DNA from: Eubacteriales bacterium
GTDB taxonomy: Bacteria; Bacillota; Clostridia; Oscillospirales; CAG-272
Reading direction: 5' to 3'
Assembly: GCA_045633925.1 (NCBI GenBank)
Contig: JAZQZG010000022.1
Location: 12,171-76,170, forward strand
DNA length: 64,000 nt
The translations under genes were made by a program, and so were the position numbers. Positions 38,379 to 38,487 of the stretch are shown here, piece by piece. Under the pieces are notes generated by a model. That model saw only the letters and a list, made by a program, of their open reading frames with translations, made no database searches and was not told where the DNA came from. Each line of letters opens with the position of its first letter. The first letter of the stretch is position 1.

Positions 38379-38487
38379 AAAGGACGCGGCGTTCATCATT
38401 TCCAGAATCAACGGCTTTACATACGTTGAGACTAAGTTTGATCCTTACACCGAGGAGGTTGCAGTTCTCTCTGAGAAGGCATTTTCC
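38379..38487 (+). pseudogene. relic fragment of a GGGtGRT-family gene (copy of 34098-34206)
   Basis: 109 nt with 5 mismatches and no indels versus codons about 157-193 of the intact gene at 33628. No start codon, no RBS, and no continuation of the reading frame. Confidence 0.85.

What the first reader, a model, noticed from the sequence alone, without database searches (positions are those of the whole stretch)
38379..38487. 109-nt relic of the GGGtGRT gene 4.2 kb downstream of the intact copy
38379-38487 matches 34098-34206 (codons about 157-193 of the GGGtGRT gene) with 5 substitutions and no indels. It sits in non-coding DNA between the heparinase-like gene terminator and the HAD hydrolase promoter, and has no start codon or RBS. 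About 70 nt further on, GCCGATGTGTATGATATTT loosely resembles the right arm of the operon terminator (GTGATGTGTCCAATATTTT). That suggests a heavily deleted second copy of the gene 3' end plus terminator. It marks a past duplication or rearrangement. It implies that the 34.7-38.4 kb block (the heparinase-like gene) was inserted into, or recombined next to, a duplicated GGGtGRT locus.
Basis: seen in the sequence. Interest (0 to 1): 0.6.

Follow-up and report, generated by a model that had tools for sequence, protein, structure and literature searches.

The report
Leftover piece of displaced GGGtGRT gene
The 110-base repeat is real: it is what remains of a second, beheaded copy of the GGGtGRT gene, stranded with half of its own terminator when strain-to-strain recombination placed a heparinase-like gene behind the working copy, so it is a tidy but ordinary scar of gene gain.

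Summary
Confirmed. Window 38379-38488 matches 34098-34207 (gene nt 471-580) at 105/110 with no indel, and this is the only such pair in the genome.

Contigs of the same or a sister species explain both edges.
- Right edge: homology to five contigs starts exactly at 38489. There the sequence is the loop and right arm of a strong terminator that follows a displaced GGGtGRT gene end and precedes the HAD gene.
- Left edge: another contig carries the heparinase-like block with the same flank up to AAAGGAC (38379-38385), then continues as an intact hairpin with no relic.

So the relic is the 5' part of a 5'-truncated, internally deleted second gene copy. It is joined to the heparinase-like block at a 7-nt microhomology.

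Its four differences from all three conspecific alleles are synonymous third-position transitions. It is therefore a fossil of a working allele, not a decayed local duplicate.

Best mechanism: a crossover in the conserved operon plus one illegitimate join (HFIR-type 3' displacement), then a deletion of about 470 nt. It has no start codon, no Rfam match and no sign of function.

In related genomes the same gene flank is a hot spot for integrase islands and cassettes.

The parts
33628..34626 (+). Intact GGGtGRT gene (332 aa), last gene of the PduL-like / NifU-like / GGGtGRT operon
   Evidence: Pfam PF14057, E = 1.2e-191. 97-98% nt identity to conspecific contigs L078 and L084.
34098..34207 (+). 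Segment of the intact gene (nt 471-580, codons 157-193) that the relic matches. It is the most variable segment of the gene within the genus.
   Evidence: 74-88% identity between species here, against 83-93% elsewhere in the gene.
34673..34710 (+). T1 terminator hairpin (stem GGACACATCA / TGATGTGTCC) after the intact gene
   Evidence: Orthologous hairpins are present in L078, L079 and L075.
34908..38303 (+). Heparinase II/III-like secreted protein gene (1131 aa). This is the strain-variable block.
   Evidence: Pfam. Paralogues on contigs C8 and C25. Absent from conspecific L078 and L082-L086, present in L079.
38302..38346 (+). Terminator hairpin of the heparinase-like gene
   Evidence: 20-bp stem.
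38347..38378 (+). Right-end flank of the heparinase-like block (..TTTTCGGAGAGGTTAAAA), identical in L079
38379..38385 (+). AAAGGAC: 7-nt microhomology at the left junction. It is shared by the hairpin arm that follows this flank in L079 and by gene nt 471-477.
   Evidence: Homology to L079 ends at 38385. L079 continues GGACACACC...GATGTGTCC.
38379..38488 (+). The relic: nt 471-580 of a second, 5'-truncated GGGtGRT copy. It is a fossil allele and is not translatable.
38489..38509 (+). Right half of the truncated copy's own intrinsic terminator 'b': loop TTCG (38489-38492), right arm GTTTGGGAGTC (38493-38503), T tract (38504-38509). The left arm is deleted.
   Evidence: In L082-L086 the complete hairpin AAGGACTCCCGAAC-TTCG-GTTTGGGAGTCTTT (-21.4 kcal/mol) follows a displaced gene end. 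Their homology to the window starts exactly at 38489.
38617..39523 (+). HAD (Cof-type) hydrolase gene with its promoter. This is the native downstream neighbour of the displaced gene copy.
   Evidence: 93-95% identical in L078 and L082-L086.
39635..39664 (+). T1' hairpin with the same 10-nt stem as T1. It is the only other such hairpin in the genome and sits where synteny with the sister species resumes.
   Evidence: (4 of 500 shuffles).
39671..40921 (-). Beta-helix protein gene: conserved flank on the far side of the variable region
   Evidence: Ortholog lies behind the displaced gene-end fragment in G008:C51 and in L078 and L082.

Best explanation
The relic is the surviving 5' part of a second GGGtGRT copy that began at gene nt 471 and ran to its own stop codon and its own terminator 'b', just upstream of the HAD gene. 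The copy arose when DNA from another strain entered a chromosome whose native order was GGGtGRT - terminator b - HAD. The incoming DNA carried the conserved operon followed by a T1 hairpin, the heparinase-like gene and a further hairpin. One crossover was homologous, in the conserved operon. The other end joined illegitimately at the 7-nt microhomology AAAGGAC, between the donor's hairpin arm and nt 471-477 of the resident gene. This is homology-facilitated illegitimate recombination, a '3' displacement'. The result was an intact gene, then the new block, then the resident gene from nt 471 onwards. A later deletion of about 470 nt removed nt 581-999, the 34-nt spacer and the left arm of terminator b. 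That left 110 nt of coding sequence fused to half a terminator. The relic has no function now. Shown directly: both junctions, the half terminator, the strain variability and the allelic nature of the differences. Inferred: the order of events, the direction (which allele was resident) and DNA uptake as the route.
For: Repeat. Right junction: five independent contigs (L082-L086, 95-98% identical) carry GGGtGRT, a 108-aa cassette, a displaced last-12-codon fragment, 34 nt, a complete terminator b and then HAD. Their homology to the window starts at 38489, the first base after the relic, inside the hairpin loop. Left junction: L079 matches the window at 97.3% from 35778 to 38385 and then continues as an intact hairpin; the shared last 7 nt, AAAGGAC, equal gene nt 471-477. 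Strain variability: L078 has the same operon at 97.2% and the same HAD, but has YgjV in place of the heparinase-like gene and has no relic. Allele: the relic differs from the own gene, L078 and L084 alike at 105/110. Four sites are relic-specific and all are synonymous third-position transitions. At the fifth site the relic and L078 keep the ancestral G while the window's gene is derived (Q183). By my estimate from the 0.22-0.28 synonymous fractions computed, the chance that four neutral changes are all synonymous is about 0.002-0.006, or about 0.01 if only transitions are counted. The two copies have unrelated terminators (T1 and b), which an in-place duplication would not give. A ComEC gene is present. 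HFIR and 3'-displacement precedents: PMC3240628 and PMC5361080.
Against: No other assembly carries the relic itself. Scans for the left junction and for the relic allele found nothing, and exact-protein look-ups for the relic-spanning ORF and for the heparinase-like protein found nothing. The window is not simply an L079-type donor joined to an L084-type recipient. It lacks the four-helix-bundle gene that L079 has between the gene and T1, and its gene end is of the L084 type, so further events must be assumed. The right deletion junction shows no clear microhomology. Natural competence is unproven. All allele statistics rest on 4-5 sites.
Confidence: 0.6

Rival explanations
1. Scar of a site-specific integrative element (the e14/icd type). 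An integrase-carrying island brought its own copy of the gene from nt 471 onwards and integrated at a core near nt 471, displacing the native part. The integrase and most of the island were later lost.
For: In the genus an orthologous tyrosine integrase (about 310 aa, 74-89% identical between species) sits directly behind GGGtGRT in G008, G020, G023, G027 and G072, and also in L075. A different 434-aa integrase sits there in L076/L077. Gene-end direct repeats bound these islands. G005 has a truncated copy that starts at nt 473.
Against: The assembled genome has no ortholog of that integrase. The integrase-linked repeats start at nt 905-906, not 471, and have conserved element ends unlike this flank. 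In L079 the same flank runs into an ordinary hairpin, so the junction looks illegitimate rather than like an att core. Truncated copies across the family start at many different positions (aa 131, 155, 239, 253, 263-277, 286), so the 471/473 coincidence may be chance.
Confidence: 0.12
2. Filler or templated patch. About 103 nt of GGGtGRT sequence, taken from imported DNA of a related strain, was copied or ligated into a break or stalled fork while the heparinase-like block's hairpin was being joined to terminator b. This would be short-patch double illegitimate recombination or template switching. No long second copy ever existed.
For: 7-nt microhomology at the left junction. Both junctions fall inside hairpins, which stall forks. 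The piece is short. The relic allele is foreign to the strain.
Against: In five contigs terminator b natively follows a GGGtGRT gene end. A gene fragment sitting next to b is therefore most simply a gene copy with its own terminator. No microhomology is evident at the right junction.
Confidence: 0.12
3. In-place tandem duplication of the gene's 3' half and its downstream DNA, followed by neutral decay, deletions and insertion of cassettes.
For: Direct orientation, 4.28-kb spacing, and a second GGACACATCA hairpin downstream.
Against: All four relic-specific changes are synonymous and there are no indels (neutral synonymous fractions). The two copies have different terminators. Conspecific strains show single-copy arrangements with different cassettes.
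Confidence: 0.08
4. Assembly artefact. A piece of a co-occurring strain's GGGtGRT gene was stitched into this metagenome-assembled contig.
For: The genome is a 74%-complete MAG. GGGtGRT is very conserved and abundant, contigs of related MAGs often break inside it, and public assemblies contain odd in-frame internally duplicated GGGtGRT proteins. No second assembly shows the relic.
Against: The junctions share only 7 nt and about 0 nt with the flanks, far below any assembler's k. The longest run identical to the gene is 66 nt, and the relic has private variants on both sides of it. Each flank is confirmed separately by independent assemblies right up to the junction base. The half terminator next to a gene fragment makes biological sense.
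Confidence: 0.05

Closest known systems
Homology-facilitated illegitimate recombination (de Vries & Wackernagel 2002; Prudhomme et al. 2002; Meier & Wackernagel 2003; reviewed in PMC3240628)
   Same: One end is anchored in a conserved sequence and the other is joined at a short microhomology (here 7 nt). New DNA is gained next to the anchor. The host has a ComEC gene.
   Different: This is inferred from sequence only, with no experiment. The illegitimate join fell inside the anchor gene itself, so part of the gene was duplicated rather than flanking DNA deleted. Competence of this uncultured Clostridia lineage is unknown.
3' (C-terminal) displacement leaving orphan fragments at Rhs, CdiA and T6SS effector loci (Jackson et al. 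2009; Kirchberger et al. 2017, PMC5361080)
   Same: The incoming module uses the conserved upstream part as an anchor and supplies a new downstream part. The old 3' part is pushed downstream and decays as an orphan. Repeated events build arrays.
   Different: The gene here is a conserved, probably housekeeping, iron-sulfur-associated protein, not a polymorphic toxin. The displaced part is not variable in function and nothing suggests that it is reused.
e14 and phage 21 integration into the 3' end of icd in Escherichia coli (recalled from my own knowledge; e14/icd papers are listed)
   Same: A protein gene is kept intact because the incoming DNA brings a replacement end. The displaced end stays as a pseudo-fragment that differs mainly at synonymous sites.
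   Different: That process is integrase-driven at a fixed core. This applies to relatives' islands at nt 905-906 of GGGtGRT, but not demonstrably to this relic: there is no integrase, a different position and a microhomology junction.

Membership tests
HFIR-type 3' displacement scar | Conserved homologous anchor upstream of the inserted DNA | tested here: met
   30220-34616 is 97.2% identical to L078. 33507-34627 is 97.2% identical to L084. The operon is syntenic across the genus.
HFIR-type 3' displacement scar | Distal junction at a short microhomology, with no long homology | tested here: met
   AAAGGAC (38379-38385) is shared by the L079 hairpin arm and gene nt 471-477. The sequences diverge immediately after it.
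HFIR-type 3' displacement scar | Displaced resident sequence stays next to its native downstream DNA | tested here: met
   The relic abuts the right half of terminator b and then HAD. This is the order found behind a displaced gene end in L082-L086.
HFIR-type 3' displacement scar | Donor and resident copies are different alleles | tested here: met
   Four relic-specific synonymous transitions against three conspecific alleles. Only 4-5 sites, so the support is modest.
HFIR-type 3' displacement scar | Host takes up linear DNA (natural competence or an equivalent route) | tested here: inconclusive
   A ComEC/Rec2 homolog is present (PF03772, E = 6e-53). That alone does not show competence.
Integrase-mediated island with gene-end direct repeats (attL/attR) | Integrase gene in or beside the island | tested here: not met
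   There is no PF00589 or PF00239 hit on contig C22 near the locus, and no ortholog of the GGGtGRT-linked integrase in the assembly. The assembly is only 74% complete.
Integrase-mediated island with gene-end direct repeats (attL/attR) | Repeat starts at the family's fixed core (gene nt 905-906 in this genus), next to a conserved element end | tested here: not met
   The relic covers nt 471-580, and its left flank is unlike the conserved element ends ..AAAGCCCCTGAAG|CGTAGAGATG.
Recent in-place tandem duplication | Both copies, including their non-coding tails, are near-identical, and differences are spread without regard to codon position | tested here: not met
   The terminators differ (T1 versus b). 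All relic-specific changes are synonymous.
Known structured RNA | Match to an Rfam covariance model | tested here: not met
   Only sub-threshold hits, and those fall on the neighbouring terminator hairpin. Nothing falls on the relic.

The most novel reading that the evidence does not exclude
The 3' flank of GGGtGRT may be a dedicated cassette-capture platform in this family of gut and rumen Clostridia. In conspecific strains single-gene cassettes (a 108-aa protein, YgjV, HAD, XRE plus a 176-aa protein, the heparinase-like gene) are each bounded by members of one hairpin family (stem GACACATCA / TGATGTGTC) or by displaced gene ends. In related strains two different integrase families sit immediately behind the gene. 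The hairpins might then act as recombination sites, as attC sites do in integrons, as well as terminators. On that reading the relic would be a by-product of recombination at such a hairpin.
Probability: 0.12. Interest if true: 0.65.

Novelty: new member of a known kind. Interest (0 to 1): 0.3.

Why it matters
On its own the relic is a non-functional scar. Its value is that both junctions can be read to the base against sister strains. That gives a rare, clean natural example of gene gain by one homologous and one microhomology-mediated join in an uncultured gut or rumen anaerobe, with a fossil allele preserved. It also points to a broader feature. GGGtGRT is extremely conserved and abundant in published gut and rumen metaproteomes. 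It serves as a recombination anchor and integration target behind which every species, and even every strain, carries different accessory genes. I found no paper describing this in the library searched. For annotators, short GGGtGRT fragments downstream of the gene should be read as boundaries of inserted DNA, not as genes.

Tried and rejected
- Other assemblies of the relic: exact look-up of the HAD protein, two metagenome scans for the left junction and the relic allele, and exact look-up of the 87-aa ORF spanning the relic and of the heparinase-like protein all found nothing.
- Ancient truncated paralogue: rejected. Each partial copy (window, G005) is closest to its own genome's gene. Short 'GGGtGRT' proteins in the databases were contig-end pieces or a frameshifted gene.
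- Contig breaks inside the gene as evidence for a repeat boundary at nt 471: rejected. The candidates G187 and G416 are plain contig ends.
- A fixed att-like boundary at nt 471-473, suggested by G005: downgraded. Truncation points across the family are scattered, so one coincidence among about 15 events is not surprising.
- Mosaicism of the intact gene (5' versus 3' part against relatives): no clear signal.
- Homology between the spacer after the relic and T1-type hairpins looked marginal (9 of 300 shuffles; not significant against L079). It was superseded by the exact match to terminator b.
- An antisense or regulatory RNA role: no minus-strand promoter and no Rfam match.
- Structure prediction to look for a domain boundary near residue 155: not run. 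There is no solved homologue and it would not change the verdict.
- One Pfam call with wrong coordinates failed.

Full report
OBSERVATION. The repeat exists as described. Window 38379-38488 aligns to 34098-34207 without gaps at 105/110. These are the only two copies in the 1.73-Mb, 74%-complete assembly. The source is nt 471-580 (codons 157-193) of a 332-aa GGGtGRT protein gene (PF14057, E = 1e-191). That gene ends a PduL-like / NifU-like / GGGtGRT operon.

The relic lies between the hairpin terminator of a 1131-aa heparinase II/III-like gene (38302-38346) and a good sigma-70 promoter for a Cof-type HAD hydrolase (38617-38645). In the gene's frame it is preceded by TAA two codons upstream and has no start codon. 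Rfam finds nothing on it. No minus-strand promoter that could make an antisense RNA was found.

GENUS CONTEXT. Upstream synteny (ClpP-like, PduL, NifU-like, GGGtGRT) holds in every relative examined. Downstream of GGGtGRT every species has something different. The HAD gene has no ortholog in the genus. The heparinase-like gene belongs to a multi-copy family.

A six-frame search of 72 genomes of the genus showed many short GGGtGRT fragments on the same contig and strand, 1-20 kb behind the intact gene. Most start at gene nt 905-906 and run through the stop into a hairpin. Many of them, across several species, are preceded by related element ends (..CCCTGAAG|CGTAGAGATGATGGG).

In G008, G020, G023, G027 and G072 an orthologous tyrosine integrase lies directly behind the intact gene. 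It is about 310 aa, 74-89% identical between species, and has Phage_integrase plus a SAM-like N-terminal domain. So the gene's 3' end is an attachment site for a family of integrative islands, with displaced gene ends as distal direct repeats.

The window's genome has no such integrase, and its relic covers a different part of the gene. In the sister species G008 the displaced gene end is followed by the ortholog of the window's beta-helix gene. Synteny therefore resumes at about 39665, and 34.63-39.66 kb is the variable region.

A hairpin with the stem GGACACATCA / TGATGTGTCC occurs exactly twice in the genome: after the intact gene (T1, 34673-34710) and at 39635-39664 (T1'). It thus brackets this variable region. 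An earlier first-reader note had seen this too (e1-3186723).

STRAIN-LEVEL COMPARISON (decisive). A protein search returned GGGtGRT proteins 98-99% identical to the window's. Their contigs, and those of close HAD and heparinase-like homologues, give several contigs of the same or a sister lineage at 95-98% nt identity.

- L078 has the same operon at 97.2% identity. Behind it come a four-helix-bundle gene, T1, YgjV on the other strand, HAD (93%), a hairpin, an XRE gene plus a 176-aa ORF, a second hairpin of the same kind, and the beta-helix gene. It has no heparinase-like gene and no relic.
- L082-L086 (five contigs, from five separate assemblies, one of them a Logan run) have GGGtGRT, a 108-aa ORF, a displaced copy of the last 12 or so codons, 34 nt, and a perfect intrinsic terminator: AAGGACTCCCGAAC-TTCG-GTTTGGGAGTCTTT, -21.4 kcal/mol, followed by a T tract. 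Then comes HAD. Their homology to the window (94.7% over 1188 nt) begins exactly at 38489, the first base after the relic, inside the loop of that hairpin. So 38489-38509 is the right half of the terminator ('b') that natively follows a GGGtGRT gene end in this lineage. Its left arm is missing in the window.
- L079 has the gene end, the four-helix-bundle gene, T1 and the heparinase-like gene. It matches the window at 97.3% from 35778 to 38385. After the shared ..CGGAGAGGTTAAAAAAGGAC it continues as an intact hairpin (GGACACACC...GATGTGTCC) and has no relic. The last seven shared bases, AAAGGAC (38379-38385), are also gene nt 471-477.

The relic is therefore the 5' part of a gene copy that began at nt 471. 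That copy was joined at a 7-nt microhomology to the end of the heparinase-like block. It once continued to its stop codon and terminator b. A deletion of roughly 470 nt (nt 581-999, the spacer and the left arm) then fused nt 580 to the terminator loop.

ALLELE. Over nt 471-580 the window's gene, L078 and L084 differ from each other at no more than 2 sites. The relic differs from each of them at 5. Four sites (7, 10, 94, 106) are private to the relic, and all are third-position synonymous transitions. At site 77 the relic keeps the G (Glu183) found in L078, L084 and nearly all relatives. The window's gene carries a strain-specific C (Gln183).

One search computed that a random mutation in this stretch is synonymous with probability 0.22-0.28. 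Four out of four then has a chance of roughly 0.002-0.006, or about 0.01 if only transitions are counted. These last figures are my own estimate. The looser five-site tests gave 0.02-0.1. The numbers are small, but they point one way: the relic's sequence diverged while it was still coding. It is a fossil of another lineage's working allele, not a local duplicate that decayed. The unrelated terminators of the two copies (T1 versus b) say the same.

MECHANISM. The simplest history has two steps.

- Step 1: DNA from a strain carrying operon - T1 - heparinase-like gene - hairpin recombined with a chromosome carrying operon - terminator b - HAD. One junction was homologous, in the operon. The other was illegitimate, at AAAGGAC. 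This is homology-facilitated illegitimate recombination (PMC3240628). It is the mechanism proposed for the orphan 3' fragments at T6SS effector and Rhs loci (PMC5361080). Because the illegitimate join fell inside the resident gene, the resident nt 471-999 were retained behind the new block.
- Step 2: the internal deletion described above.

A ComEC gene is present, but competence is unproven. The window is not a pure L079-plus-L084 hybrid. It lacks the four-helix-bundle gene, and its gene end is of the L084 type. More recombination has therefore occurred here.

RIVALS.
- Integrase-mediated integration is real at this gene in relatives, but it does not fit this junction.
- A templated or filler patch remains possible.
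- In-place duplication is disfavoured by the allele pattern and by the different terminators.
- An assembly artefact is unlikely. Neither junction shares more than 7 nt with its flank, and each flank is independently confirmed up to the junction base. However, no other assembly contains the relic and reads could not be examined.

A partial copy in G005 starts at nt 473 and has its own SD and ATG, behind a high-GC FAD oxidoreductase. It looked like a second case of the same boundary. Truncated copies in the family start at many positions, however, and each copy is nearest to its own genome's gene. I treat the coincidence as unproven.

VERDICT. It is a well-resolved instance of a known kind of recombination scar at a gene not described in the literature as a recombination or integration hot spot. 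Interest is modest for the relic itself and higher for the hot spot.

Noticed in passing
G008:C70 (L023 11139-13245); G020:C124; G023:C14; G027:C20; G072:C12; L075 2662-5498: An orthologous tyrosine integrase of about 310 aa sits directly behind GGGtGRT in several species. Islands of 6-19 kb end in direct repeats of gene nt 905-906 through to the terminator, sometimes stacked two or three deep. Cargo includes resolvases and a 2217-aa Flg_new protein.
   Followed up: partly
L076 812-3340 and L077 1062-3590: In contigs whose GGGtGRT is 99% identical in protein, a different 434-aa integrase (SAM_3 plus Phage_integrase, opposite strand) follows the gene. Its cargo includes NUMOD4 and RdRP-domain proteins. 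The GGGtGRT C-terminus is altered there (..EEASKN), as expected if the element replaces the gene end.
   Followed up: no
G005:C75 (L058 429-2546): A 5'-truncated GGGtGRT ORF (MAEEAAMIISR.., starting at gene nt 473) has its own SD and ATG, 16 nt behind a high-GC PF12831 FAD oxidoreductase. It is 95.6% identical to that genome's intact gene (13 synonymous substitutions and 3 amino-acid-changing codons among 16 differing codons). It may be an expressed C-terminal half, or another displacement product.
   Followed up: partly
window 34673-34710 and 39635-39664; L078 5320-5357, about 7100-7133 and about 8311-8343; L079 652-689 and 4079-4111: Hairpins with the stem core GACACATCA / TGATGTGTC recur at the boundaries of single-gene cassettes behind GGGtGRT. 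In L078 two of them flank an XRE plus 176-aa cassette that the window lacks.
   Followed up: partly
window 34617-34665, compared with L078 4719-5312, L079 56-641 and G008:C51 3020-3750: A four-helix-bundle gene (23S rRNA intervening-sequence protein family) lies between GGGtGRT and T1 in sister strains and behind the displaced gene end in G008. It is absent from the window, where about 35-50 nt of unrelated sequence take its place.
   Followed up: no
proteins P0121, P0122, P0132, P0191 (public assemblies): These are GGGtGRT proteins of 431-461 aa with in-frame internal tandem duplications. One junction lies at a repeated K-D-A motif, the same codons as the relic's left edge. They could be real duplications or assembly artefacts of this very conserved gene.
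   Followed up: no
window 38302-38346; G024, G023 and G058 contig ends: The 24-nt palindromic core of the heparinase-like gene's terminator (..AACCACCGGC..GCCGGTGGTT..) matches sequences about 100-140 nt from many contig ends in three related genomes. This suggests a multi-copy element there.
   Followed up: no
window 34174-34176 (codon 183): The window's GGGtGRT has Gln183, where the relic, all 98-99% identical strains and nearly all relatives have Glu. It is a strain-specific change in an otherwise extremely conserved protein.
   Followed up: partly
L059 5516-6516: In one public contig GGGtGRT is split into two overlapping ORFs (162 and 171 aa) near residue 161, which indicates a frameshift or a sequencing error.
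   Followed up: no
L074 8001-8855 (protein P0006): A chimeric ORF fuses 83 unrelated N-terminal residues to GGGtGRT from about residue 131. It sits at the distal end of a glycerol-metabolism gene block and is another truncated copy, with a different boundary.
   Followed up: no
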